A stretch of DNA of 64,000 nucleotides from a candidate division WWE3 bacterium (GTDB lineage Bacteria; Patescibacteriota; WWE3; UBA101185; UBA10185), in assembly GCA_014729135.1 (NCBI GenBank), contig WJKK01000001.1, forward strand, positions 260,588 to 324,587. Direction: 5' to 3'. Positions within the stretch are counted from its first letter, which is position 1; each line of letters starts with the position of its first letter. The notes below the pieces were generated by a model. It searched no databases, was not told where the DNA came from, and worked only from the letters and a program-made list of their open reading frames with translations. Made by a program: the position numbers and the translations under genes. Below, piece by piece: positions 12,687 through 47,581 of the stretch.

Positions 12687-14147
12687 ATGACCGAAGTAAA
12701 CCTCCAAAAATACATAAGCAATCAAGTAGCGCGCGCTCCGGAAATGCTAAAAATTTATACAGAAGACACCTCCGGGGAAGCCTATTTAAAAAGGGATAAG
12801 TTCTCTTCTTTACTCAAACTTATTGAGGATTTTACCTCTAAAGAAAGCGACGTTCGTGTTATAGGCATTCCCGGATTGCGTGGAACAGGAAAAACTACTT
12901 TGCTTGCTCAACTCTATCTTCACCTTTTTCCTGACCATCCGGGGGATATGCTTTTTATTTCTGCAGATGAACTTGTGGAGGATTTAAACACAGATTTATT
13001 CACTATATTCAAGGAATATGAAAAATATTTGGGAACCCCCTTTGCTGAGCTTGATAGAGACATTTTTATCTTTATAGACGAGATTCAATTTGATCCTAAA
13101 TGGGCAAGTGCTCTTAAAATACTTTATGACCGTTCTCGTCGTGTTTTCGTTTTATGTACGGGATCTTCTGCCCTTTCTTTGCAATCAAATACAGATGCTG
13201 CACGTAGAATTCTTTTTCAAAAACTTTTTCCATTGTCATTTCCGGAATATATGCGTTTAAAGTCCAAGTATGCTTCCATAAAGGATCCTTCCCTTTCAGT
13301 AAAAGATGTTAACAGAGATCTGCGAAATTCCTTAAAAGATGCTCTGTTTTATAGTGAAAATGCTTCCATGGTTCACGAAAACCTTCTTAAAGTTAATGAT
13401 GAAGTGAAAGAATATTGGAAGGGTATTGACACGCTGGAGTTAGGTCGTTATTTACGTTTTGGTACGATGCCCTATTCCCTTAAGTCCCTGGACAATCAGC
13501 GTTTACTAAATCTTACCGATTCGCAAATAGATCGTGTAATTGAGCGTGACTTACCGGAGCTTGGAAAATTTGATACTTCTACGCTTTCTTCTGTGCGTAA
13601 TGTTTTGCTGCTTCTAGCCGGAAGTACAGAGGTTAGTATCACCAATCTTTCAAATAATTTGGCAGGGATGTCGGCTGTGACCCTGCGCAACGTTTTGGAG
13701 GCTTTAGAAAAAGCTGAATTGCTGATTCGTGTTTATCCTTATGGTTCTTCCAGTTATAAAAAAGTTCGTAAGCCGTCAAAATATCACTTTATGTCTCCTG
13801 CAATACGCCATGTTTTGCTTTCTCTGCTGGAAGGTGAGTTATCTTTTTCTAAGCACAAGGGGAATTACTTGGAGGATGCAATGGCTTTATATTTGCATCG
13901 GATTTTTAGTTCTGATCTGATTTCCCCCATTTTTTATGATAGTTCCAAAGGAGGGGCTGATTTTTTAATAAATCTTGTAGTTCGTCGTATTGTCCTTGAA
14001 GTAGGCATGGGACATAAAGGAGTTGAGCAAGTTTTGTCGACTTTGGAAAGGACTAAAAGCACTTATGGTTTGGTGGTTAGTGATTCTGATCTCTCTTTAA
14101 AGGGGGATGTTGTCAAGGTTCCTTTGGAGTTTTTCCTTTTGTTGTAG
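12687..14147 (+). CDS. AAA+ ATPase of the DUF4143 family (AAA_14 + DUF4143)
   Basis: Walker A IGIPGLRGTGKTTLL; ~480 aa architecture typical of the archaeal/CPR-abundant DUF4143 ATPases. Confidence 0.7.
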   Translation: MTEVNLQKYISNQVARAPEMLKIYTEDTSGEAYLKRDKFSSLLKLIEDFTSKESDVRVIGIPGLRGTGKTTLLAQLYLHLFPDHPGDMLFISADELVEDLNTDLFTIFKEYEKYLGTPFAELDRDIFIFIDEIQFDPKWASALKILYDRSRRVFVLCTGSSALSLQSNTDAARRILFQKLFPLSFPEYMRLKSKYASIKDPSLSVKDVNRDLRNSLKDALFYSENASMVHENLLKVNDEVKEYWKGIDTLELGRYLRFGTMPYSLKSLDNQRLLNLTDSQIDRVIERDLPELGKFDTSTLSSVRNVLLLLAGSTEVSITNLSNNLAGMSAVTLRNVLEALEKAELLIRVYPYGSSSYKKVRKPSKYHFMSPAIRHVLLSLLEGELSFSKHKGNYLEDAMALYLHRIFSSDLISPIFYDSSKGGADFLINLVVRRIVLEVGMGHKGVEQVLSTLERTKSTYGLVVSDSDLSLKGDVVKVPLEFFLLL

Positions 14148-14160
14148 TAAAATTTGTTGG

Positions 14161-14189
14161 TTGACAGATATGGCTTTTAGGGTTATAAT
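14161..14189 (+). promoter_or_regulatory. consensus sigma70-like promoter driving the T-box leader
   Basis: TTGACA (14161-14166), 17 nt spacer, TATAAT (14184-14189). Confidence 0.55.
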
Positions 14190-14195
14190 TACCCA

Positions 14196-14540
14196 CGTTA
14201 GTTTGAAAATTAATTAAAAGCTTTGACGGAAGGTCATTAGTAGAATATCTTCAGTGACACCAGAGATTGTGCGGTAGCTGAAAGCACAACGTATGAAGTA
14301 GTTTGAATTACCCTTTCTGAGCTTTCCGACTGAAAAACCTTTTTTAGGTAGTAAGTTGGAACGGGCGATCCCGTTATAGATTTTGGAGTGTGTCACGAAT
14401 CGTAAAACGAAGCAACAGAGCACTTCTCAAGACTCTTATGGTGACATAAGGGTGAATTTAAGGTGGTACCGCGGTAATAAAGCCGTCCTTAGACTTTATC
14501 TATTAATTTAGATGAGGTTTGAGGACGGCTTTTTTTGTTG
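14196..14540 (+). promoter_or_regulatory. T-box riboswitch leader (tRNA-sensing transcription attenuator); specifier tentatively UAC (Tyr)
   Basis: T-box sequence aatttaaGGTGGTACCGCGG (14455-14474); F-box-like CCCGTTATA (14370-14378); AGUA S-turn element and AGAGA box in Stem I; terminator aaagccgtcc...ggacggcttt plus T-tract (14479-14537). Confidence 0.65.
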
Positions 14541-14673
14541 TAAAAAAGTCTTTTAAAAGCACTTTGAAAGAAAAATACTACTGACAATGCAGGAACTATT
14601 GAGATAGTGAGAATTTTTCGCTATTTCTGCGTTTCTGTATTGTTTGTTTCACTACCTAAAAAGGAGGAGCATT

Positions 14674-14886
14674 ATGGAGATGGAGGTAAGACTAGCCCCT
14701 ATTGGTGGGGGGATCTATGTGTTGAAGTCGGTTGTGAGTGGCGATTTTGTGTGTTTGGACCATGGGGGTACTCCGAGAATCACGAGTTTTGAAAGAGCCC
14801 GGAAGGGGACGGCTCAAGAGTTGGAGGAATTGGTCCGAAACCACATAGGATTGTATCTGCAAGAGGATGAGGCGTTGGGATACTAG
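14674..14886 (+). CDS. small hypothetical protein (70 aa from MEMEV...; ORF track gives 14644)
   Basis: Strong SD aaaggagg 8 nt before ATG 14674; GC content rises through the ORF; no recognised domain. Confidence 0.3.
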   Translation: MEMEVRLAPIGGGIYVLKSVVSGDFVCLDHGGTPRITSFERARKGTAQELEELVRNHIGLYLQEDEALGY

Positions 14887-14916
14887 AAAGCACGTGAAAA
14901 CCAGAGGAGATATAAG

Positions 14917-15828
14917 ATGAAAGCTTTACCTGAAAGTTTGGAGGGTTTCAACATCCTCCATGTCGTTTTGGATTCGTTGCGCTTTGACAGCGCGTCCCGG
15001 GCAGATACACCTGTGCTTGATTCCCTGGGGCCACTAATTGCCGCGCGAACTTTGGCACCCTACACTCCCGCAGCACATGCTGCTGCCTGGTTGGGCCACT
15101 TTCCGAGTGCGCCCACATCGGCGCTGCCTTACTACAATGAGACCGTACGGCAGCCCCTACGTATCACCACGGGTCCCGCCCGTGACGCGAACAAAGGCTG
15201 TGGGATGCTTTTGGATGGCGCCGATGTGCTGGATGGCCTGTGTCGAAAGGGTTATTCCACGTTAGGTTGGGGAGGTGTTTCCCAATTTAGTACAGGTAGC
15301 TGGCTTCGCCAGTTTGCCTGGGACCATTTCACTTATTTTGGAGTGGATATGGACGAGGAGCCTCTGGCACCGCGCGCACCTGAAACCTTTCCCTTGAATC
15401 TGAATCGTGTGGGCGAGATTTTGTCCACAATGTCTGATTATGGGAAGGTTCCTTGGTTCCTTTTTCTCAACGACCCCGCGCCACACTATCCCTATGATTG
15501 GGGGGAAGGTATTACCGAGGAAGTGCGGGAGGAGGCTTTTCCCTTGCTTAAGCTCAATCTGCGTTCTCACCATCTTGCCATGGAGAAGCGCGACATGCTG
15601 GCGCTTTATGCCCCTCTCCTTCAGCAGATGCAAGTAGATGGTTTGGAACGTTATATCGATCCTGGTCTTGGGGAACTTTTCAAAGGTCTTCGGCAGATCT
15701 CGGATCGCCCCGTCTTTGCAATTGTGCACGCCGATCATGGTGAGTACTTTGGTGAGGACGGACTGTATGGTCACATGCATGGAGGAATCTATGATATGAC
15801 TGTTCCTCTGTGGATTGGTGTACTCTAA
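14917..15828 (+). CDS. alkaline-phosphatase-superfamily enzyme (sulfatase / nucleotide pyrophosphatase-phosphodiesterase-like); GC-rich, likely acquired
   Basis: N-terminal metal-ligand motif NILHVVLDSLRFD and C-terminal HADHGEYFGE...GHMHGG resemble AlkP-superfamily signatures; local GC (estimated by eye) is far above the flanks. Confidence 0.5.
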   Translation: MKALPESLEGFNILHVVLDSLRFDSASRADTPVLDSLGPLIAARTLAPYTPAAHAAAWLGHFPSAPTSALPYYNETVRQPLRITTGPARDANKGCGMLLDGADVLDGLCRKGYSTLGWGGVSQFSTGSWLRQFAWDHFTYFGVDMDEEPLAPRAPETFPLNLNRVGEILSTMSDYGKVPWFLFLNDPAPHYPYDWGEGITEEVREEAFPLLKLNLRSHHLAMEKRDMLALYAPLLQQMQVDGLERYIDPGLGELFKGLRQISDRPVFAIVHADHGEYFGEDGLYGHMHGGIYDMTVPLWIGVL

Positions 15829-15853
15829 AGGAGGTGAAACAACTATAGTCATC

Positions 15854-15900
15854 GGGCTCCTCGCTCTTGCCAAGCGTCAACTAAGCTTAGCGAGGAGCCC
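15854..15900 (+). terminator. GC-rich hairpin closing the GC-rich block
   Basis: gggctcctcgct (15854-15865) pairs with agcgaggagccc (15889-15900), a 12-bp stem with a 23-nt loop; no clear T-tract. Confidence 0.4.
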
Positions 15901-15938
15901 GGTAGAATTTTACCAGAAACGTTTTAACAAGTTAGAAT

Positions 15939-16520
15939 ATGATTATGAAACTAAAAATACTAGGTATTGCCCAAGATGGGGGAGTACCGCAAATAAATTG
16001 TCAGTGTAAAAATTGTAAGACATCTCGTACTGAAGGTGTGCCTTTGTTTGCGACCTCCTTACTTGTAGAGAGAGCTAAAGGAAAAAGTACCTTAATTGAT
16101 GTTTCTCCCGATATAAAAAATCAGCTGACACCCACTGAATTTAATGGTATAGACAGTATTGTTTTAACCCATGCACATGTAGGTCACATTGGCGGGTTGC
16201 TTCAGTTTGGCTTTGAGATAGCAAATAAAAAAGGCGTTAATCTTTTTGCATCTCCGGAAATGCACTCTTTCTTACAGGATAATGAGCCTTGGAAACAGTT
16301 ATTTGAAAATGGAAATATAGTTCCGTGCAAATTTAGATTTGAAGAAACTTTTGCTCTTGAGGAGTTAAGAGTTACCCCTTTAAAAGTTCCTCATAGGGAT
16401 GAAATAGCAGATACAAGCGGTTTTATATTGGAAGGTGATTTCAAAAAAGTTTTATTTATTCCCGATATTAAGAACTGGCTTGTTTGGGAGAAAGACTTGA
16501 AAGAGGAAGTAAGTAAGTAA
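15939..16520 (+). CDS. MBL-fold metallo-hydrolase (PqqB-like), N-terminal part; interrupted by an in-frame TAA inside a (GTAA)5 repeat
   Basis: LTHAHVGHIGGL metal-binding motif; the ORF ends in ...EVSK* within gtaagtaagtaagtaagtaa. Confidence 0.55.
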   Translation: MIMKLKILGIAQDGGVPQINCQCKNCKTSRTEGVPLFATSLLVERAKGKSTLIDVSPDIKNQLTPTEFNGIDSIVLTHAHVGHIGGLLQFGFEIANKKGVNLFASPEMHSFLQDNEPWKQLFENGNIVPCKFRFEETFALEELRVTPLKVPHRDEIADTSGFILEGDFKKVLFIPDIKNWLVWEKDLKEEVSK

Positions 16521-16529
16521 GTAAGTAAG
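16506..16529 (+). repeat. tetranucleotide repeat, five to six (GTAA)/(AGTA) units
   Basis: gaagtaagtaagtaagtaagtaagg seen directly; it sits between two in-frame ORFs. Confidence 0.8.
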
Positions 16530-16787
16530 GTGGATATTGCCCTTATTGATGGTACCTTTTTTAGTTTAGATGAGTTACCCGGTAGGGATGTTGCGGAAAT
16601 AGGTCATCCCTTAATTAGAGATAGTATTGAGGAATTGGAAGGCTTGTCTGATATCGGGAAAAAGAAAGTTCATTTTATACACTTTAATCACAGCAATCCT
16701 GTTTTGAGTGCCAAAGGAGAAGCGAGGAAATTTATTGCGGAGGCAGGTTTCAATTTGGCGGAGCAAGGAATGGTATTAGAAATATAA
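16530..16787 (+). CDS. MBL-fold metallo-hydrolase (PqqB-like), C-terminal part; same frame as 15939..16520, GTG start
   Basis: Continuation of the beta-lactamase-fold C-terminal region (HFIHFNHSNP); both ORFs start at positions divisible by 3. Confidence 0.45.
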   Translation: MDIALIDGTFFSLDELPGRDVAEIGHPLIRDSIEELEGLSDIGKKKVHFIHFNHSNPVLSAKGEARKFIAEAGFNLAEQGMVLEI

Positions 16788-16797
16788 CTAAGAGTAT

Positions 16798-16883
16798 CCG
16801 GGGATACCAAAGTGGTCAACTGGGGCGGTCTGTAAAACCGCTGGCTTTTGCCTACGCTGGTTCGAATCCAGCTCCCCGGACCA
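16798..16883 (+). tRNA. tRNA-Tyr (anticodon GUA), long variable arm, CCA encoded
   Basis: Acceptor ccgggga/tccccgg; anticodon stem gcggt/accgc with loop CUGUAAA; variable arm tggcttttgcctacgctgg; T-arm gctgg-ttcgaat-ccagc. Confidence 0.8.
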
Positions 16884-16893
16884 ATTTAGAACT

Positions 16894-17976
16894 ATGAAAA
16901 AAGAAGTTAAGAGAAATAAAATTCAGAGGGATTACACGCGCCAAGTGCCTAATCCGGAAGATTTTCAGAGATTTGACCTCTCCGGGGGTAATCCTTGGTT
17001 CCGCGATTTGATTGATGAATGGGTCAGGGAGCTTCCTTTAGATACCCTTATTCATTTTCCTGATAATTTTTCTCGAGTTAAAGCTTTATTAGCGGATTGG
17101 TTAGGTGTTCCTTCTGATATGTTATTCATCAATAATGGTAGCGATTCTATTATAGAGTTACTCCCTAGAGTATTTTTAAAGAGTGATGCCTCTGTAGTCG
17201 TTCCCGTGCCCACCTTCTTTAGATTTATTCAGGCCTCGGAGCGTAATTGCAACAATGTCATAAAAGTTCGTTTTGGAAATAATTTTGTTTGGACACCTGC
17301 GTTTCTTGAACGTTTTTTAACCTCTGTGAACGATCCCTCAGTAAAGCTTGCTTGGTTGGCCAGTCCTAATAACCCCACAGGACTATGTATTCCCCCAGCA
17401 ATGTTAAAAGAAGTTCTTCGTACTGGAAAGCTTGTCGTTTTAGATAGGGCTTTAAATGGATTTGCCCCCGATTTGAGGAAGGACACCTATCTATTAGAGG
17501 AATATCCCAATTTGATTATCTTATCAAGTTTCTCGAAGAATTTCGGGTTGGCGGGATTACGCTTTGGGTTTAGTTTAGCCTCTCCCTCAAATACGCAAAA
17601 ATTGAGGGAATATTCCCTGCCCTTTACCGTTTCCGGTCCTTCTCTGTGGTTTATGGAACGCTTTTTACACTGTCTTGTCCAAGGTGTTGTTTCTGGTGAG
17701 GACTCGGCATCTATCGAGTCTTCGAGGCTTGAGTTAGAGAATTCCCTGCGAACCATCCCGGGATTAGAAGTTGTTTCTGGTTCGCAGGCAAACTTTCTTA
17801 TGTTTCGTCATTCCATGGAGCCTGACTTGTTTGGTAGGTTAAAGGATAGTGGGATTTTAGTTGCTGATTTGAACAATACCTCCGGAATTGAGGGAGAGGG
17901 TTTTGTTCGAATGACCATTCGTAGTGTTTCTGAGAATAGAAAGTTTGTTGAAAAATTAAAGGAGATAGTCGGCTAA
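16894..17976 (+). CDS. class I/II PLP-dependent aminotransferase (HisC/aromatic aminotransferase-like)
   Basis: LASPNNPTG and the PLP-lysine context SFSKNFGLAGLRFG. Confidence 0.75.
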   Translation: MKKEVKRNKIQRDYTRQVPNPEDFQRFDLSGGNPWFRDLIDEWVRELPLDTLIHFPDNFSRVKALLADWLGVPSDMLFINNGSDSIIELLPRVFLKSDASVVVPVPTFFRFIQASERNCNNVIKVRFGNNFVWTPAFLERFLTSVNDPSVKLAWLASPNNPTGLCIPPAMLKEVLRTGKLVVLDRALNGFAPDLRKDTYLLEEYPNLIILSSFSKNFGLAGLRFGFSLASPSNTQKLREYSLPFTVSGPSLWFMERFLHCLVQGVVSGEDSASIESSRLELENSLRTIPGLEVVSGSQANFLMFRHSMEPDLFGRLKDSGILVADLNNTSGIEGEGFVRMTIRSVSENRKFVEKLKEIVG

Positions 17977-17981
17977 GCTGT

Positions 17982-18452
17982 ATGTGGACTTTTGAAAAAA
18001 TAACCTCACTTTTGAGGAGAAGAGGTATTGCTTTTGAAGAAATTCACTTTATGGATGACGGAGCCGTTTCGGCCCGTGCTGCAGATACATCAAAAAACAA
18101 TAACTATGATCCTGACAAGGCTATCAAAACCCTAGTTGTTGTTTCGGGTGACTTCTTGTACGGTGTTGTATTGCGCGCAGATAGTCGCATCGACTCTATC
18201 AAGTTAAAAAAATTGATAGGGAAATGGAGTGTAGTTTCCCTAGATGCTTTAGAGGATTTGGGGTTTGTGCCCGGTGGAGTTAACCCTTTTGTTCTGGATT
18301 TTCCTGTCTTTGCGGATGCTGCAGTTTTGGATTTACCTTTTCTTAGCATGGGTGCCGGTAGTCGAACTAAAGGCATCAACGTTTCTGTATCTGAGTTTGA
18401 AAAAAACCTTGATTATAAAGTTATAGACATAAAGGAGAATGTAAGTACATGA
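17982..18452 (+). CDS. YbaK/ProX-family aminoacyl-tRNA deacylase (trans-editing protein)
   Basis: 156 aa; the KTLVVVSGD...FVPGGVNPF pattern is typical of the YbaK editing domain; it sits directly upstream of tyrS. Confidence 0.6.
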   Translation: MWTFEKITSLLRRRGIAFEEIHFMDDGAVSARAADTSKNNNYDPDKAIKTLVVVSGDFLYGVVLRADSRIDSIKLKKLIGKWSVVSLDALEDLGFVPGGVNPFVLDFPVFADAAVLDLPFLSMGAGSRTKGINVSVSEFEKNLDYKVIDIKENVST

Positions 18453-19582
18453 CTACAAAAGAGAAGTTTAATTTAATTGAGCGTAACACTGAAGAAGTAA
18501 TTATGCCCGAGGAGTTAAAAGGGCTTTTGGATGCAGAGGAAAAGCTTAAGCATTACATTGGTTTCGAGATTTCCGGAAAAATACATTTAGGAACTGGTCT
18601 AATGTGTATGGGTAAAGTAAAAGATTTTATGGAGGCTGGTGTTGAGTGTACGATTTTTTTGGCAGACTGGCATACTTGGATAAACGATAAGTTGGGGGGA
18701 GATATGGAGACAATCCAGGAGATTGCTGTCGGCTATTTTAAGGAGGGTTTGAAAGCCTCCTTGAAAGCCCTCGGAGGCGATCCCGAAAAACTGAATTTTG
18801 TTTTGGGAAGTGAGCTTTACCACAACAATGATGCGTATTGGGCTACCGTTATTGAAGTGTCTAAGAACATAACTTTGTCTCGGAATTTGCGCAGTATCTC
18901 TATTATGGGACGCGAGGAGGGTGAAGGAGTGGATTTTGCTAAATTGATTTATCCACCCATGCAAGTTGCGGATATTTTTGCACAAGGGATTACCTTAGCG
19001 CATGCGGGCATGGATCAGCGTAAGGCCCATGTAGTTATGCGTGACGTTGCGGACAAACTCACTATTTGTCCTGCAAGGAACTCTTTGGGGAAGAAGATCA
19101 AACCCTTAGCAGTGCATCATCCCCTTCTTCTAGGTTTACAGAAACCTCCTATGTGGCCTGTTCCAAAAGAAAAATTGCGTGATGTATGGGCTTCTGCAAA
19201 AATGAGCAAGTCCAAGCCCAAATCTGCTGTTTTTATTACGGATTCTCCTGATGAGATACGGGAAAAGATTCTGGATGCTTTTTGTCCTCAGAACAATGCG
19301 GAGTTTAACCCTGTTTTAGATTGGGTAAAGCGCCTTGTTTTTATGAGCCCTTCGACGATTTTTGAAGTGGATCGCGAAGAAAGGTTTGGGGGTAAAATTT
19401 CTTTTAGCTCTTTTGCGGAAGTAGAAGACGCTTTTGTTTCAGGAGATTTACATTCGCAGGATTTAAAAAGAGCCCTGGCCGAATTTTTGGTAGTTTTGTT
19501 GGAACCTGTTAGGGAGCACTTTGATCTTTCGGAGAATAAAAAGTTATTAGAGCGTATGAACGACTTAGCGATTACTCGTTAG
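18449..19582 (+). CDS. tyrS: tyrosine--tRNA ligase, archaeal/eukaryotic type
   Basis: Near-collinear with Methanocaldococcus TyrRS: FNLIERNTEEV, GFEISGKIHLG (HIGH-like) and KMSKSKP (KMSKS); 377 aa. Confidence 0.85.
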   Translation: MTTKEKFNLIERNTEEVIMPEELKGLLDAEEKLKHYIGFEISGKIHLGTGLMCMGKVKDFMEAGVECTIFLADWHTWINDKLGGDMETIQEIAVGYFKEGLKASLKALGGDPEKLNFVLGSELYHNNDAYWATVIEVSKNITLSRNLRSISIMGREEGEGVDFAKLIYPPMQVADIFAQGITLAHAGMDQRKAHVVMRDVADKLTICPARNSLGKKIKPLAVHHPLLLGLQKPPMWPVPKEKLRDVWASAKMSKSKPKSAVFITDSPDEIREKILDAFCPQNNAEFNPVLDWVKRLVFMSPSTIFEVDREERFGGKISFSSFAEVEDAFVSGDLHSQDLKRALAEFLVVLLEPVREHFDLSENKKLLERMNDLAITR

Positions 19583-19597
19583 AATCTCTTAATGAAA

Positions 19598-19632
19598 CGA
19601 GAAACCCCGGAAAATCCGGGGTTTCTTTGTTT
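19598..19632 (+). terminator. bidirectional rho-independent terminator between tyrS and hsp20
   Basis: gaaaccccgg-aaaat-ccggggtttc followed by TTTGTTT. Confidence 0.55.
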
Positions 19633-43365: not shown

Positions 43366-43675
43366 ATTGAAAAATAAATACTAAAAGCTATGATGAAGAG
43401 AGTACCAATAGGAAACGGTTTTACAGAGAGCGGTGCAAAGGTGAGAGTGCCGCATTTACGCCCTTTTGGGAACAAAGCTTCGGAGCTGCTGGAAGAAATT
43501 GCGTTTCGCGCAAGAGTAGAACCGTGCCGGGAGAGCCCGTTATAGCCGAAAACCTTGCTAGAGGTTGTAAGGCCTGTCTGGAAACGGATAGGTAAAAAGA
43601 GGTGGTACCGCGACAATAATCGCCCTCATTTGGATCTAAGTATATGCTTGGGTTTAGGTGAGGGCGTTTTTTGTT
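43366..43675 (+). promoter_or_regulatory. T-box riboswitch leader; specifier tentatively AAA (Lys)
   Basis: Stem I parallels the glyQS Stem I: K-turn AUGAUGA, GAAG, AGAGAGUA, upper stem ccaatagg/ccttttgg, loop GAACAAAG, CUUC. F-box CCCGTTATA (43536-43544), T-box GGTGGTACCGCGA (43601-43613), terminator cgccctca...tgagggcg plus T-tract (43621-43672). Confidence 0.65.
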
Positions 43676-43720
43676 GCCCTAATAAATAACGGGTTACATT
43701 TATAAGCAAGGAGGTTCGAG

Positions 43721-44908
43721 ATGGGGAAGCAAGTTTTGGTGATGGGGGTTAGGCGGCAATATCAGTTCGACGGAGATTGGGGAGACTGGCTTCGGCTCGG
43801 TGTTCGGCGTCTTCTGACTTTACAGTCAGGAGATGTTGCAGTCCTGCCGGAGATTTGGGGCATTCCCGAGTATGTGGAGCACTTGCAGGAGGTTTGGGGT
43901 ATCAATTTGGAGGTCCTGTGGGTGAGCGGTAGGTTTTACCTCCTGGATAGCGCTATTCTGGAGACCCCGAGGGTTCTCGGGCGTCTTCAGGAACTGGGAG
44001 GACAAGGTGCAGTTTTTGTGCTGTACGATAGTTCGACGTCACACTTCCAGTCTTGGTGGCGATTGATGCCGCAGGAAGCTCGTTTGTGTGGAGAGACTTT
44101 GGAGTGGGGTAGTCGATGGAACACCAAGAAGTGGTTGTACCGAGACGCTAGGAATCCAGAGCAACCTTCGATTGCCGAACGGTTGGATATTCCGGTACTC
44201 TCAGGCTACAATGCAGGATCCGTCGCGGAGCTGTTGAAGGCTTGGGACCTAATAGGATGTGGCTCGGTTATCATCAAGCCGTTGACAGCGGCGTTTGGTG
44301 ACGGTTTGGTGGTTGCGCATGAACGGAGTGATTTGGAGTCCTATACTTTCCCACTCGGTTCGGTGGGTGTGGAGGAGTATGTGGAAGGTTATCCCCAGCC
44401 TTGGTCCACCCACTGGGTAGGGGAGGAGCTGCTTGGACCTCCGACTTCCCAGCTTCTTCACGGGAGCACTGCCGTGGGAAACGTCACTCCAGGGGATTTT
44501 GACGCGGCGATGCAGGGGCAGCTTCTGGCGTTGACCCGTGAGTTTGTTCGGGCAGCCCAGCCCCGCGGCTATGGGGGCCTCAACGGGTTGATCGACGCCG
44601 AAGGGGTACCCCGCGTGACGGATGCCAATTGTAGGGAGACGGGTGTTTGCTCGACGCTCGTTTTCCGTGACCGTTATTGTCCCGGGGCGGTGACGGTAAA
44701 CAAGAAGTTGGGGAGACCTAACATGTCCGTTGGAGATGCTTGGCAGTGTCTTCAAGCGGCAGGCTTAGCATTCGACATCTCGGCGCGACGAGGAATAGCC
44801 CTCCAGGGGTGGTTACCCTCGATGTGGAGTCGCATGACCTGCGCCGCAGACACGAGGCAAGAGGCCTTAGAGCTGCTCAATGCAGCAAAGGAGGCTTTAG
44901 GTATGTAA
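43721..44908 (+). CDS. ATP-grasp-fold enzyme (RimK/LysX-like ligase family); GC-rich, likely acquired
   Basis: Strong SD aaggagg. VIIKPLTAAFGDGLVV (central ATP-grasp lysine strand), VGVEEYVEGY (E-x-Y-I/V hinge), LIDAEGVPRVTDANCRETG (Mg-binding Asp/Asn loop). Local GC (estimated by eye) is well above the flanks. Confidence 0.5.
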   Translation: MGKQVLVMGVRRQYQFDGDWGDWLRLGVRRLLTLQSGDVAVLPEIWGIPEYVEHLQEVWGINLEVLWVSGRFYLLDSAILETPRVLGRLQELGGQGAVFVLYDSSTSHFQSWWRLMPQEARLCGETLEWGSRWNTKKWLYRDARNPEQPSIAERLDIPVLSGYNAGSVAELLKAWDLIGCGSVIIKPLTAAFGDGLVVAHERSDLESYTFPLGSVGVEEYVEGYPQPWSTHWVGEELLGPPTSQLLHGSTAVGNVTPGDFDAAMQGQLLALTREFVRAAQPRGYGGLNGLIDAEGVPRVTDANCRETGVCSTLVFRDRYCPGAVTVNKKLGRPNMSVGDAWQCLQAAGLAFDISARRGIALQGWLPSMWSRMTCAADTRQEALELLNAAKEALGM

Positions 44909-44927
44909 TGTAAAAAGTTGTGTTGAC

Positions 44928-44976
44928 GCGATGGGAGGGTATGGGCCGGTTGGATATCGTCCAACCCTCCTATCGC
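44928..44976 (+). terminator. long imperfect GC-rich hairpin closing the second GC-rich block
   Basis: gcgatgggagg...[ggttgg-atatcgt-ccaacc]...cctcctatcgc nested stems 20 nt after the ATP-grasp stop. Confidence 0.4.
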
Positions 44977-44996
44977 GCATCAATTGTAAGGTAAAA

Positions 44997-46091
44997 ATGA
45001 TAAACAGACAAAGATTAATAAATACATTTTTAGAAATAGTTCAGATTGATAGCCCTTCGGGTGCGGAAGGAGCTATGGTGGAATACGTAACTTCTTTTCT
45101 ACACGCGTTAGGAGTGCGCCATGTAGTGGATTCTTTTGGCAACGTTATTGCTTATACTGAAGGTTCCGGAGGGCCTCTCTTGTTAAGTGCGCACTTAGAT
45201 ACAGTTGAGCCCGGAAGAGCTATTGCTCCTGTCATTGAAGACGGCTTTATCAGAAGTTCCGGCGACACCATTTTAGGCGCTGATAACAAGGTTGCAGTAG
45301 CCTCTCTGTTGGAGTTGATACGTACACTGACGGAAGCATCTGTAACCGATATTCCTTCTTTAGAGGTTATTTTTACGCTTTCAGAGGAAGTTGCGAATTT
45401 GGGAGCTGTAAATCTTGATTATTCTCTTCTGAGTGCGCGAGAAGGTTTTACTTTTGATAGTGGAAGTTCTTTGGGTACAGTTATTACCGACTCTCCTTTC
45501 TATAATCGGTTTGATATAGTTGTTAATGGTGTTGCCTGCCATGCAGGACATCCGGAAAGAGGCCTAAATGCTTTAAGTTTGGTGGTTAATGCGCTATCTC
45601 AAATTACTCTGGGTCAGACCGGTCTTGAAACCACTTGCAACATAGGTTTGATTGAGGGGGGAGTTGCACGCAATATTGTCCCCGGGCAAATTACTCTCCG
45701 AGGAGAAGTACGCAGTTTTGTAGAGAGTGTCCTAGAGGAAATGTGCACGGATATTAGTAGCGTTTTTCAGAAAGTAGTTGCAGAAAATGAGGGCTCCGTG
45801 GAAATAGAGATTGTTCGCGAAAATAGTGGCTTCAGTTTTTCTGCTGATGACCCTCTGTTGAGATACACTATGCGAATTCTAGAAGATTTAGAGCTTTCCC
45901 CAACCCCGCGTGTTTCTACGGGTTGTTATGATGCTAACATATTTCAGGAGCATGGGATTTGTGTTCTAAACTTGGGTAATGGTTCCGTGGATAATCACAC
46001 AATTAGGGAAAAGATTTCTGTGGTAGACTTAGAAATGCTGGCAAACCTTGTATATAGTTTAGTGATGGGTTTTAATAGGTACAGGAATTAA
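44997..46091 (+). CDS. M20-family metallopeptidase (PepT/tripeptidase-like); the ORF-track start 44931 lies inside the upstream hairpin, so ATG 44997 is preferred
   Basis: MINRQRLINTFLEIVQIDSPSG, HLDTVEPG and the dimerisation-domain layout of M20B peptidases. Confidence 0.7.
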   Translation: MINRQRLINTFLEIVQIDSPSGAEGAMVEYVTSFLHALGVRHVVDSFGNVIAYTEGSGGPLLLSAHLDTVEPGRAIAPVIEDGFIRSSGDTILGADNKVAVASLLELIRTLTEASVTDIPSLEVIFTLSEEVANLGAVNLDYSLLSAREGFTFDSGSSLGTVITDSPFYNRFDIVVNGVACHAGHPERGLNALSLVVNALSQITLGQTGLETTCNIGLIEGGVARNIVPGQITLRGEVRSFVESVLEEMCTDISSVFQKVVAENEGSVEIEIVRENSGFSFSADDPLLRYTMRILEDLELSPTPRVSTGCYDANIFQEHGICVLNLGNGSVDNHTIREKISVVDLEMLANLVYSLVMGFNRYRN

Positions 46092-46105
46092 AAGGAGTTT
46101 ATAAA

Positions 46106-47581
46106 ATGTCGACAATAGCAGATCTTCGTAAGGTAAGGCTTGAACAACTGGAGAAAATAAAAAAGCTTGGTTTAAATCCCTATCCTGCTGAATCCAAAAA
46201 AGACTATCCAAATAAAGAAATTCTAGATAATTTTGAGGATCTTGAAGGCAAGAGCGCAAATATTACAGGGCGCATAACTTCAATACGTGAACATGGAGCT
46301 TTAGTTTTCATAGATTTAGCCGATGAGTCCGGTGTAATTCAACTTTATATTAGAGAGGACACACTAAAAGCAACAGATCTCCAAGATCAGATTTTAGGTT
46401 TTGACCATATAAGCCTTTTAGGTACAGGTGATTTTATTCAAGCTTTTGGAGAAGTTACAAAAACAAAGTCGGGTCAAATTTCCCTAAAAGTAGAATCACT
46501 AAAACTTCTCTCAAAGTCCTTGCGACCAATCCCGGAAGAACTAAAAGATATTGAAGAGCGTTACCGCAAACGTTACCTGGATTTTCTACTAAATCCCCGT
46601 TCAAAGGAAATCTTGGATACGCGTTGGAAAATAGAGGAAGAAACACGTAAATTCCTTTGGAATCAAGGATTTAAAGAGGTGGAAACTCCCATTTTGCAGA
46701 CGCTTTATGGAGGTACTAATGCCGAACCTTTTACAACACATTTTAATGCTTTAAATACCGATTTTTATCTTCGTATAGCCCCAGAACTTTATTTAAAGCG
46801 TTTAATAGTGGGAGGTTACGAAAAAGTTTTTGAAATAGCCCGCAACTTTAGAAACGAGGGCATAGATCAAACGCACTTTCCTGAATTTACAATGCTTGAA
46901 TGGTATGAGGCTTATGCTGATTACCATCGGGTTATGGATTTAGCGGAGGCTTTGACAAAGCATCTGGTCTTGAAATTAACAGGCGGAACAACAATAAAAG
47001 TTAATGATCAAGAAATAGATATTAGCGGTACTTGGCCACGTATTCCTGTAGAGGATTTGGCGAAGGAACACCTGGGCATTGAGTGGGATTCCATAGCGGA
47101 TGATGAAATTAAGGATCTGTTGAATAAGCACAAAATTCAAGTTGCAGGTGTTTGGGATCGGGAAAAAGCTTTGTTTACTTTGTATGATCATCTGGTTACG
47201 CCTAAATTAATAGAGCCTGTTTGGGCAATAGATTATCCGCAGTCTGTAAGTCCTTTATCTAAGGCGCATAGAACCAAGGAAAAGCGTGCAGAAAGATTTG
47301 AAGGTTACATTGGAGGTGTGGAGATTTTTGACGGATGGAGTGAGATTGTTTCAGGTCTTGAACAACGTCGTCGTTTTGAGGTGGAGCAGCGAAACATGAA
47401 AGAGGGCGATAAGGAAGCCATGCCTTTAGATGAGGAGTTTATTGAAGCCTTAGAGTACGGTTGCCCTCCTTTGGGTGGAATTGGTTTTGGGATTGACCGC
47501 TTGGTTATGTTTTTAACGGATACTTGGGGTATAAAAGATGTTGTAGCCTTCCCGATTTTAAAGCCTCGCTCCGATAGTTAA
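46106..47581 (+). CDS. lysS: lysine--tRNA ligase (class II)
   Basis: N-terminal OB-fold anticodon-binding domain; class II motifs (FRNEGID, LGGIGFGIDRLVM); 491 aa. Confidence 0.9.
   Translation: MSTIADLRKVRLEQLEKIKKLGLNPYPAESKKDYPNKEILDNFEDLEGKSANITGRITSIREHGALVFIDLADESGVIQLYIREDTLKATDLQDQILGFDHISLLGTGDFIQAFGEVTKTKSGQISLKVESLKLLSKSLRPIPEELKDIEERYRKRYLDFLLNPRSKEILDTRWKIEEETRKFLWNQGFKEVETPILQTLYGGTNAEPFTTHFNALNTDFYLRIAPELYLKRLIVGGYEKVFEIARNFRNEGIDQTHFPEFTMLEWYEAYADYHRVMDLAEALTKHLVLKLTGGTTIKVNDQEIDISGTWPRIPVEDLAKEHLGIEWDSIADDEIKDLLNKHKIQVAGVWDREKALFTLYDHLVTPKLIEPVWAIDYPQSVSPLSKAHRTKEKRAERFEGYIGGVEIFDGWSEIVSGLEQRRRFEVEQRNMKEGDKEAMPLDEEFIEALEYGCPPLGGIGFGIDRLVMFLTDTWGIKDVVAFPILKPRSDS

What the first reader, a model, noticed from the sequence alone, without database searches (positions are those of the whole stretch)
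14640..15905. GC-rich gene block inserted directly behind T-box leader 1
Composition changes abruptly from the host-like AT-rich, G/T-skewed style to roughly 55-58% GC (estimated by eye) across the 70-aa ORF and the 303-aa alkaline-phosphatase-superfamily ORF. It returns to host composition right after a 12-bp GC hairpin at 15854-15900. Several long antisense ORFs appear only here, which is a typical artefact of high GC. The block sits between a T-box leader and the tRNA-Tyr/ybaK/tyrS genes it would be expected to control. It looks like foreign DNA captured under riboswitch control.
Basis: partly seen in the sequence, partly recalled or inferred. Interest (0 to 1): 0.8.

Follow-up and report, generated by a model that had tools for sequence, protein, structure and literature searches.

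The report
Tyrosine T-box operon with GC-rich hydrolase gene
The GC-rich stretch is real, but its main gene is the usual first gene of a tyrosine-sensing riboswitch operon found in many ultra-small (CPR) bacteria, not a random piece of foreign DNA; what the enzyme does is still unknown.

Summary
The window comes from a candidate division WWE3 (CPR) genome. The composition anomaly is real but smaller than estimated. The 303-aa gene (AP303) is 53.1% GC and the 70-aa ORF 50.7%, against 40.7% for the window. AP303 ranks second of 59 genes for GC3 (z=2.4). About 55% of its excess comes from GC-rich amino acids and about 45% from codon choice.

One promoter and one Tyr-specific T-box (specifier UAC) precede ORF70, AP303, a 13-bp hairpin, a PqqB/PhnP-like metallo-beta-lactamase (MBL) gene, tRNA-Tyr, a HisC-like aminotransferase, a YbaK-like gene and an archaeal-type TyrRS.

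AP303 is not a chance capture. Eight other CPR lineages have the same AP, MBL, tyrS order, six of them behind a T-box. Four of those also have a GC-enriched AP gene followed by the same kind of hairpin.

What does look foreign or variable is the slot right behind the T-box: orphan ORF70 here, a 62%-GC PAPS-synthase gene in another WWE3, and tRNA-Tyr in a third genome. The closest TyrRS relatives lack AP and MBL.

The window's second T-box (Lys) is also followed by its most GC-rich gene.

Verdict: a conserved but mobile accessory module of the tyrosine T-box regulon, of unknown enzymatic function. Interest is moderate.

The parts
14161..14189 (+). Sigma-70-type promoter, TTGACA-17-TATAAT, 12 of 12 matches, 25 nt upstream of the T-box
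14214..14493 (+). T-box leader (RF00230). The specifier codon UAC (Tyr) is at 14309-14311 and the conserved T-box sequence GGTGGTACCGCG at 14462-14473.
   Evidence: 108.5 bits, gathering score 93; specifier invariant in 6 aligned leaders; motif
14482..14537 (+). T-box intrinsic terminator: a stem of about 20 pairs followed by a T7 run
   Evidence: I1
14674..14886 (+). ORF70, an orphan small ORF with a strong Shine-Dalgarno sequence (AAAGGAGGAG), 50.7% GC, GC3 0.58. It occupies the variable slot directly behind the T-box.
   Evidence: An exhaustive search found only itself plus weak hits to repeat proteins. No tblastn hit in any related locus.
14917..15828 (+). AP303, a small cytoplasmic alkaline-phosphatase-superfamily enzyme of the sulfatase / phosphoethanolamine-transferase branch. 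Thr50 sits in place of the sulfatase formylglycine Cys. Conserved D19, T50, H54, D273-H274 and H286. 53.1% GC.
15853..15901 (+). 13-bp GC-rich hairpin directly after the AP303 stop codon. Equivalent hairpins follow the AP gene in L001, L007, L008 and L009.
   Evidence: (I2)
15939..16787 (+). PqqB/PhnP-like MBL-fold gene, AT-rich (GC3 0.30). It is interrupted by an in-frame TAA (16518-16520) created by a 12-nt expansion of an (AAGT)n repeat at 16507-16529. The pieces are 15939-16520 and 16530-16787.
16798..16883 (+). tRNA-Tyr (GUA) inside the operon, with a C1-G72 acceptor pair and a long variable arm
16894..17976 (+). HisC/CobD-like class I/II aminotransferase, a candidate aromatic aminotransferase
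17982..18452 (+). YbaK/ProX-like aminoacyl-tRNA trans-editing domain protein
18449..19582 (+). Archaeal (DPANN)-type tyrosyl-tRNA synthetase
   Evidence: (NF006330, 407 bits)
19600..19626 (.). 12-bp hairpin after tyrS. It was found by the terminator scan on the minus strand only, after the convergent Hsp20 gene. I infer that it also ends the tyrS operon.

Best explanation
The block is the leading part of one tyrosine-starvation operon.

How it works. A consensus promoter drives a Tyr-specific T-box leader (specifier UAC). When tRNA-Tyr is uncharged, the leader prevents termination at 14482-14537. RNA polymerase then reads through ORF70, AP303, the hairpin, the PqqB/PhnP-like MBL gene, tRNA-Tyr, a HisC-like aminotransferase, a YbaK-like editing protein and TyrRS.

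What AP303 is. AP303 is not random cargo. Together with the MBL gene it forms an accessory module that accompanies tyrS behind Tyr T-boxes in many CPR genomes. AP303 is a metal-dependent alkaline-phosphatase-superfamily enzyme with a threonine nucleophile.

Inferred function (not shown). AP303 and the MBL enzyme are two hydrolases that release tyrosine, or a direct precursor, from an esterified form such as a phospho- or sulfo-ester. This would parallel the AstE/AspA-like deacylase found in the same operon position in the nearest relatives and the aminotransferase found in this operon.

Why it is GC-rich. About half of the GC excess reflects the family's amino-acid make-up. The rest is raised GC3, which is shared by the version of the cassette that carries a trailing hairpin. 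Together with incongruent AP, MBL and TyrRS trees, this points to lateral exchange of the cassette among CPR lineages. ORF70 is an orphan sitting in a variable insertion slot just behind the leader.
For: Operon anatomy:
- Promoter, T-box terminator and a hairpin after tyrS are in place, and no internal promoter matches better than 9 of 12.
- T-box at 108.5 bits. UAC is invariant in six leaders and matches tRNA-Tyr GUA.

Conservation:
- Of 11 close AP homologues whose context I could read, 10 have the MBL gene adjacent and 9 have the order AP, MBL, TyrRS.
- T-boxes lie upstream in the window, L001, L004, L007, L008, L105 and L107.
- The neighbourhood pheST / PBP / T-box-AP-MBL-tyrS / recG-rpmF-nusB-rnc-rpsP is shared by L001, L004, L007, L008, L105 and L107.

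Enzyme:
- D19, T50, H54, D273-H274 and H286 are at least 90% conserved.
- T50 aligns with the formylglycine Cys of sulfatases.

Composition:
- Decomposition of the GC excess.
- GC3-enriched AP plus spacer hairpin occurs in 5 of 5 loci (window, L001, L007, L008, L009). There is no hairpin and no enrichment in 4 of 4 others (L004, L105, L106, L107).
- The window, L001 and L007 hairpins share the base CGGGCU/AGCCCG, with compensatory changes above it (read directly).

Gene replacement:
- L004 against L008: AP 69%, TyrRS 70%, but MBL only 38% identical. There are two TyrRS types and two MBL clades.

Links to tyrosine supply:
- Nearest relatives carry an AstE/AspA-like deacylase in the same operon position.
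- Archaeal AP homologues are followed by ThiH/HydG-like radical-SAM genes, a family whose best-known members use tyrosine.
Against: - No experiment supports any substrate, and the tyrosine-ester hydrolase role is pure inference.
- One AP homologue (L109) is followed by a histidine-decarboxylase-like gene, and L108 has a HisN-like neighbour. The non-CPR contexts are therefore not uniformly about tyrosine.
- No T-box was detected in L009 or L106.
- The MBL partner in this genome carries an in-frame stop, so the module may be decaying here.
- Raised GC3 in AP persists across lineages that are only about 55% identical, while the adjacent MBL gene is very AT-rich. Neither a single old transfer nor plain vertical descent explains that.
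- The NJ trees are crude and unbootstrapped.
Confidence: 0.7

Rival explanations
1. A recent one-off horizontal capture. A GC-rich fragment (ORF70 plus AP303 plus hairpin) from an unrelated donor landed between the T-box and the tyrS genes of this genome and is now expressed by accident of position.
For: - GC3 is 0.52-0.58 against a host value of 0.38.
- The closest TyrRS and T-box relatives (L022, L019) lack AP and MBL.
- The best AP homologue is only 64% identical and lies in a different context.
- ORF70 is an orphan.
- L008 shows a truly foreign 62%-GC gene in the same slot.
Against: - The same T-box, AP, hairpin, MBL, tyrS order occurs in independent CPR lineages.
- The AT-rich MBL partner is present next to AP303, as in those lineages.
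- No integrase, transposase, flanking direct repeats or tRNA-edge signature was found. The repeats that were found are at chance level.
- No donor-like sequence was found.
- More than half of the GC excess is due to protein composition.
Confidence: 0.17
2. The module is inherited vertically and its GC-rich codon usage is maintained by selection. Possible reasons are mRNA stability or expression of the first cistron after the riboswitch, with the trailing hairpin acting as a 3' stabiliser or partial terminator. No transfer is needed.
For: - The AP-rich, MBL-poor GC contrast recurs in five lineages whose proteins are only 54-68% identical. Neutral amelioration should have erased a single ancient import over that distance.
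- The two most GC3-rich of the window's 59 genes are the two genes nearest a T-box.
- The hairpin is conserved in position, with compensatory changes.
Against: - Four lineages keep the operon with an AT-rich AP gene and no hairpin.
- The T-box-proximal AstE-like gene of L022 is not GC-rich.
- AP, MBL and TyrRS trees are incongruent.
- I know of no mechanism that demands GC-rich codons over 1 kb downstream of a T-box.
Confidence: 0.1
3. An assembly chimera: a GC-rich read set from another organism was wrongly joined into this metagenome-assembled contig.
For: The sequence is metagenome-derived, and the composition step is sharp.
Against: - The same gene order, including both junctions (T-box to AP, and AP through the hairpin to MBL), is seen in several independent assemblies.
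- The source contig is 864 kb.
- ORF70 and AP303 both have proper ribosome-binding sites in register with the operon.
Confidence: 0.03

Closest known systems
T-box-regulated tyrS operons of Firmicutes (e.g. Bacillus subtilis tyrS; Rfam RF00230)
   Same: The leader has Stem I, a UAC specifier, the conserved GGUGGUACCGCG sequence and an intrinsic terminator. It controls a tyrosyl-tRNA synthetase. Reading of uncharged tRNA-Tyr is the expected logic.
   Different: The host is a CPR (WWE3) bacterium. The leader controls a 5.4-kb operon whose first genes are an AP-superfamily enzyme and a PqqB-like MBL enzyme. It also includes the tRNA-Tyr gene itself, an aminotransferase and a YbaK-like protein. 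The synthetase is of the archaeal type. I found no paper in the searchable library linking T-boxes with CPR taxa.
STM4013/SEN3800 family hydrolase (NCBIfam NF038075)
   Same: This is the best named family hit: 83 bits over nearly the full length (residues 11-297 against model positions 8-255 of 261). It is a small, soluble AP-superfamily protein.
   Different: The score is far below the family cut-off (250). The Salmonella family is not known to be linked to T-boxes, MBL genes or tyrS. Its function is also unknown.
S1 sulfatases, phosphonate monoester hydrolases and phosphoethanolamine transferases (AP superfamily, Pfam PF00884)
   Different: It is only 303 aa, against 450-550 for sulfatases. 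It has no signal peptide or membrane domain. Thr-Pro-Ala-Ala-His replaces the Cys/Ser-x-Pro-x-Arg formylglycine motif. The window protein is sub-threshold for PF00884 (15 bits against 25).
PqqB / PhnP branch of the metallo-beta-lactamase fold
   Same: It has the N-terminal GGxPQxxCxCxxC zinc-ribbon-like motif and the MBL core. The best named NCBIfam hits are PqqB (72 + 53 bits) and PhnP. The closest solved chains include PqqB and PhnP.
   Different: All scores are below the equivalog cut-offs. No pqq or phn genes are nearby. The metal motif reads H-x-H-x-G-H in this protein and its CPR relatives (reading; the comparison with the canonical motif is from memory). The copy in this window is interrupted by a stop codon.
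Compositionally atypical genomic islets acquired by lateral transfer
   Same: GC and GC3 are well above the host values. An orphan ORF sits at the edge. The module is absent from the nearest available relatives.
   Different: There is no integrase, no flanking repeats and no tRNA-edge insertion. The same gene sits at the same operon position in many lineages.

Membership tests
T-box leader (RF00230) | Covariance-model score at or above the curated gathering score | tested here: met
   108.5 bits against 93, full-length model match 1-219
T-box leader (RF00230) | Specifier codon in the Stem I loop that matches the anticodon of the cognate tRNA and the amino acid of the regulated synthetase | tested here: met
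   UAC at 14309-14311 is invariant in 6 aligned leaders. tRNA-Tyr GUA and TyrRS are in the operon.
T-box leader (RF00230) | Conserved T-box sequence followed by an intrinsic terminator | tested here: met
   GGTGGTACCGCG at 14462-14473. Terminator at 14482-14529 plus a T-run. The antiterminator fold was not modelled separately.
T-box leader (RF00230) | tRNA-dependent antitermination | not testable with these tools
   Needs in vitro transcription or in vivo reporters.
Alkaline phosphatase superfamily, sulfatase-like branch (PF00884) | Core alpha/beta fold | tested here: met
Alkaline phosphatase superfamily, sulfatase-like branch (PF00884) | Conserved metal ligands (Asp after strand 1; Asp-His and His near the C-terminus) and a nucleophile | tested here: met
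   D19, T50, D273, H274 and H286 are invariant or at least 90% conserved in 26 sequences. Their positions in 3D were not inspected.
Alkaline phosphatase superfamily, sulfatase-like branch (PF00884) | Pfam gathering score | tested here: not met
   15.2 bits against 25 for the window protein. Many homologues carry a precomputed PF00884 hit.
Formylglycine-dependent (S1) sulfatases | Cys/Ser-x-Pro-x-Arg motif at the nucleophile | tested here: not met
   Thr50-Pro-Ala-Ala-His54 aligns to the C-x-P-x-R position.
STM4013/SEN3800 family hydrolase (NF038075) | Score at or above the curated cut-off | tested here: not met
   83.1 bits against 250
PqqB (TIGR02108) / PhnP (TIGR03307) | Score at or above the curated cut-off | tested here: not met
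   71.5 + 53.4 bits against 245, and 51.3 against 272
PqqB (TIGR02108) / PhnP (TIGR03307) | Genomic context of pqq or phn genes | tested here: not met
   None in the window operon or in related loci
Laterally acquired genomic islet | Atypical composition | tested here: met
   GC3 z=2.4, tetranucleotide z=2.6. Codon-choice excess is 5 GC points.
Laterally acquired genomic islet | Mobility genes or flanking repeats | tested here: not met
   No integrase or transposase in 12.6-19.6 kb. Repeats are at chance level.
Laterally acquired genomic islet | Absence from the syntenic site of close relatives | tested here: inconclusive
   Absent in L022 and L019, but these are only 66-72% identical in TyrRS. 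Present at the equivalent site in 8 other CPR lineages.

The most novel reading that the evidence does not exclude
T-box operons of CPR bacteria may act as landing pads where laterally acquired, GC-rich amino-acid-salvage genes become wired to starvation sensing.

The AP303 plus PqqB-like MBL pair would then be a new two-enzyme route that frees tyrosine from an esterified environmental or host-derived form, for organisms that cannot make tyrosine.

In this window, both T-box leaders (Tyr and Lys) are followed immediately by the two most GC3-rich of 59 genes. Related WWE3 tyrS operons carry other GC-rich guests: Sat/CysC in L008 and a 448-aa orphan in L019.
Probability: 0.25. Interest if true: 0.65.

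Novelty: new member of a known kind. Interest (0 to 1): 0.45.

Why it matters
- T-box regulons are a reliable guide to genes that supply a given amino acid. A conserved pair of uncharacterised enzymes locked to tyrS behind Tyr T-boxes in CPR bacteria is a concrete, testable lead to how these auxotrophic, host-dependent organisms obtain tyrosine.
- The case shows that a compositional step next to a riboswitch need not mean random capture. Here it marks a dedicated, apparently mobile operon module.
- If GC-rich genes recur behind T-boxes across whole genomes, that would say something new about how reduced genomes recruit foreign genes under ready-made regulation.

Tried and rejected
- **Metagenome scan.** The metagenome-contig scan with the AP alignment returned only distant relatives (at most 36% identity; one short 58-residue segment reached 50%), because one pattern was too permissive. 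It gave no usable context.
- **ORF70 homologues.** The exhaustive representative search gave only the protein itself. The other hits were summed weak matches to Ig-like and beta-trefoil repeat proteins, which I do not treat as homology. tblastn against all loci found nothing.
- **Insertion scars.** I looked for flanking direct or inverted repeats. One 14-nt, 86%-complementary pair brackets the block (14644-14657 and 15829-15842), but about 7 such pairs are expected by chance in 2.1 kb by my estimate.
- **Hairpin alignment.** MAFFT/RNAalifold on the five post-AP hairpins failed because the loops differ in length. I read the compensatory changes by eye instead.
- **A PAPS/sulfate theme.** Prompted by Sat/CysC in L008, I checked the IMPase-like neighbour in L108. 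It scores best as HisN or IMPase, not CysQ. Idea dropped.
- **A third tyrosine link.** The decarboxylase next to AP in L109 scores as histidine decarboxylase (469 bits), not MfnA tyrosine decarboxylase. Idea dropped.
- **Homology between GC-rich guests.** The window 395-aa protein and the L019 448-aa protein are not related.
- **Homologue search for the 395-aa ORF.** It found nothing, not even the ORF itself.
- **Canonical WWE3 neighbours.** PBP, RecG, PheST and NusB are not in this 64-kb window.
- **Depletion of tyrosine in AP303.** Not seen: 13 Tyr in 303 residues, counted from the sequence.
- **Literature.** No paper in the library links T-boxes with CPR taxa, and there is only one passing mention of STM4013.
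Full report
**Source and observation**

The 303-aa protein is identical to GF360_01340 of a candidate division WWE3 bacterium (CPR), on an 864-kb contig.

The composition step is real:
- 300-bp windows rise from 0.37-0.40 to 0.48-0.60 between about 14650 and 15550. They fall back to 0.40 by 15850 and to 0.35-0.36 inside the next gene.
- AP303 (14917-15828) is 53.1% GC (GC3 0.52) and ORF70 (14674-14886) is 50.7%. The window is 40.7%.
- Among 59 non-overlapping ORFs, AP303 is second for GC3 (z=2.4). Its tetranucleotide deviation is z=2.6.
- The claim that antisense ORFs occur only here is wrong.
- With host codon usage, the AP303 amino-acid sequence would give 47.9% GC, against 41.5% for host genes and 53.1% observed. 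So about 55% of the excess is protein composition and about 45% is codon choice.
- The hairpin at 15853-15901 is a perfect 13-bp stem, dG -33.4 kcal/mol, z=-5.4.

**Anatomy of the locus**

- A 12/12 consensus promoter (14161-14189) precedes a T-box leader (14214-14493; 108.5 bits against a gathering score of 93). The leader has the conserved GGTGGTACCGCG sequence and a terminator at 14482-14529 plus a T-run.
- The specifier is UAC (14309-14311). It is invariant in six aligned leaders and matches the tRNA-Tyr(GUA) gene at 16798-16883.
- Downstream on the same strand, with no convincing internal promoter, lie:
  - ORF70;
  - AP303;
  - the hairpin;
  - a PqqB/PhnP-like MBL gene (15939-16787);
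  - tRNA-Tyr;
  - a HisC/CobD-like aminotransferase;
  - a YbaK-like editing-domain protein;
  - an archaeal-type TyrRS.
- A hairpin at 19600-19626 follows tyrS. The scan called it on the minus strand only, and I infer that it ends the operon.

**What AP303 is**

- It is a small soluble member of the alkaline-phosphatase superfamily.
- The best named family is STM4013/SEN3800 hydrolase, but far below cut-off (83 against 250 bits).
- A 26-sequence alignment keeps D19, T50, H54, D273-H274 and H286.
- In a profile alignment to choline sulfatase, T50 falls exactly on the formylglycine cysteine and H54 on the arginine of C-x-P-x-R.
- It is therefore not a formylglycine sulfatase. By analogy with the threonine-nucleophile branches of the superfamily (my knowledge of the family), it more likely acts on phosphoryl, or possibly sulfuryl, esters.

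**Related loci: the decisive evidence**

Only 28 close homologues (42-64% identity) exist among 5.8 billion proteins. I could read the context of 11, counting the window.
- Ten have a PqqB-like MBL gene adjacent.
- Nine have the order AP, MBL, TyrRS: the window, L001 (also L002 and L003), L004, L007, L008, L009, L105, L106 and L107.
- A T-box lies directly upstream in the window, L001, L004, L007, L008, L105 and L107. None was detected in L009 or L106.
- Six loci share the neighbourhood pheST / PBP / [T-box AP MBL tyrS] / recG rpmF nusB rnc rpsP. One of them (L008) is labelled WWE3.

The AP gene is therefore the regular first enzyme of a Tyr T-box/tyrS operon in these bacteria.

**Composition across the family**

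| Loci | AP gene GC3 | MBL gene GC3 | Spacer and hairpin after AP |
|---|---|---|---|
| window, L001, L007, L008, L009 | 0.44-0.55 | 0.29-0.30 | 90-120-nt spacer with a strong 12-17-bp hairpin |
| L004, L105, L106, L107 | 0.25-0.36 | 0.26-0.35 | no spacer, no hairpin |

- In the first group the AP gene is 7-12 GC points above its locus.
- The split is 5/5 against 0/4.
- The window, L001 and L007 hairpins share the base CGGGCU/AGCCCG. Above it they differ by paired, compensatory substitutions (read).
- The hairpin therefore belongs to the cassette. It is not a scar of a recent insertion in this genome.

**Signs of mobility**

- The component trees disagree. L004 and L008 share 69% (AP) and 70% (TyrRS) identity but only 38% (MBL). 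TyrRS occurs as a bacterial or an archaeal type, and MBL falls into two deep clades.
- The window's TyrRS and T-box are closest to L022 (72% protein identity, 69% leader identity). In L022 the T-box is followed by an AstE/AspA-like deacylase, then tRNA-Tyr, then TyrRS, with no AP or MBL. L019 (WWE3 CG08) is similar.
- The closest AP homologue (64%) lies on a 46%-GC contig with no MBL gene or T-box.
- The slot directly behind the T-box is variable:
  - ORF70 here, an orphan;
  - tRNA-Tyr in L007;
  - a bifunctional ATP-sulfurylase/APS-kinase at 62% GC and GC3 0.80 in L008;
  - nothing in L001.
- No mobility genes or meaningful flanking repeats are present.

**A parallel inside the window**

- A second T-box-like leader (motif at 43601-43612, terminator after it, probable AAA Lys specifier) was missed by Rfam at the gathering threshold.
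- It is followed at once by the most GC-rich gene of the window: 43721-44908, 56.5% GC, GC3 0.61, with only weak pre-ATP-grasp and PGM1_C hits and no detectable homologue.
- An M20 peptidase and LysRS come next.
- The two top-GC3 genes of 59 are thus the two T-box-proximal genes. That is 1 chance in 1711 if positions were random.
- L019 also carries a GC-rich 448-aa orphan in its tyrS operon.

**Mechanism**

- Shown by sequence: the arrangement and the Tyr specificity of the switch.
- Inferred from established T-box biology: uncharged tRNA-Tyr stabilises the antiterminator, and the whole operon is transcribed.
- Inferred with low confidence: AP303 and the MBL enzyme act as a pair of ester hydrolases that increase the tyrosine supply. 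The support is as follows:
  - their strict association with tyrS and Tyr T-boxes;
  - other supply-type enzymes in equivalent operons (an AstE/AspA-like deacylase in relatives, a HisC-like aminotransferase here);
  - ThiH/HydG-like radical-SAM genes directly after archaeal AP homologues.
- Contrary hints are the histidine-decarboxylase-like and HisN-like neighbours in L109 and L108.
- A tRNA-end repair role (cyclic phosphodiesterase plus phosphatase) cannot be excluded.
- In this genome the MBL gene carries an in-frame TAA. It was created by a 12-nt expansion of an (AAGT) repeat relative to all homologues, so the pair may be impaired here.

**Unexplained**

GC3 enrichment of AP persists in lineages that are only 54-68% identical at the protein level, next to an extremely AT-rich MBL gene. 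A single ancient import should have ameliorated by now. The remaining options are repeated exchange from a GC-richer pool or selection on the transcript, and the data do not separate them.

**Verdict**

Its core claim is wrong, because AP303 is a dedicated, conserved operon member rather than captured random DNA.

Novelty: new member genes of a known kind of regulon, in a phylum group for which I found no T-box literature. Interest 0.45.

Noticed in passing
window 43385-47581: A second T-box-like leader is present: GGTGGTACCGCG at 43601-43612, a terminator at about 43625-43672, and a probable AAA (Lys) specifier near 43470. Rfam missed it at the gathering threshold. It is followed directly by the most GC-rich gene of the window (43721-44908, 395 aa, 56.5% GC, GC3 0.61), which has only weak pre-ATP-grasp and PGM1_C hits and no homologue in the protein search. 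An M20 peptidase and LysRS follow.
   Followed up: partly
window 16507-16529: An (AAGT)5.8 microsatellite lies inside the PqqB-like MBL gene. It is 12 nt longer than the equivalent stretch in all nine homologues and creates an in-frame TAA. This could be pseudogenisation, phase variation or an assembly error.
   Followed up: partly
window 16798-16883 and 18449-19582; L019, L022, L007: The TyrRS is of the archaeal (DPANN-like) type, 63-66% identical to Nanoarchaeota and Woesearchaeota enzymes. The operon's tRNA-Tyr has the archaeal/eukaryal-style C1-G72 pair but a long, bacterial-style variable arm. L019 and L022 (same TyrRS type) have C1-G72 with a short arm. L007 (bacterial TyrRS) has G1-C72 with a long arm. 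The acceptor pair therefore tracks the synthetase type.
   Followed up: partly
L008 4219-5946: In another WWE3 genome, a bifunctional ATP-sulfurylase/APS-kinase gene (62% GC, GC3 0.80, in a 43%-GC genome) sits between the Tyr T-box and the AP gene. This is a clear case of foreign DNA in the slot that ORF70 occupies in the window.
   Followed up: partly
L007 (DATKWK010000023.1, 274.8 kb): The contig is labelled Candidatus Bathyarchaeia, but it carries a bacterial class A penicillin-binding protein, a T-box, bacterial TyrRS, RecG, NusB and RNase III in the same order as WWE3 loci. It is very likely a mis-binned CPR contig.
   Followed up: no
L010 3047-3889; L017 6860-7954: In two archaeal loci, AP-family homologues (37-43% identity) are followed immediately by ThiH/HydG-like radical-SAM genes (158-210 bits, below cut-off) and preceded by a divergent TrmB-like regulator.
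   Followed up: partly
L019 7078-8424: The tyrS operon of WWE3 CG08 contains a 448-aa protein with no Pfam or NCBIfam hit. It is GC-rich (53.7% GC, GC3 0.57) relative to its neighbours (0.40-0.42).
   Followed up: no
window 14644-14657 and 15829-15842: A 14-nt inverted pair (86% complementary) brackets the ORF70-AP303 block almost exactly. By my estimate, about 7 such pairs are expected by chance in this 2.1-kb region, so I do not treat it as significant.
   Followed up: yes
window 12687-14147: An AAA_14/DUF4143 ATPase gene lies directly upstream of the operon promoter, and groEL lies before it. This flank differs from the pheST/PBP flank of the canonical WWE3 tyrS locus.
   Followed up: no
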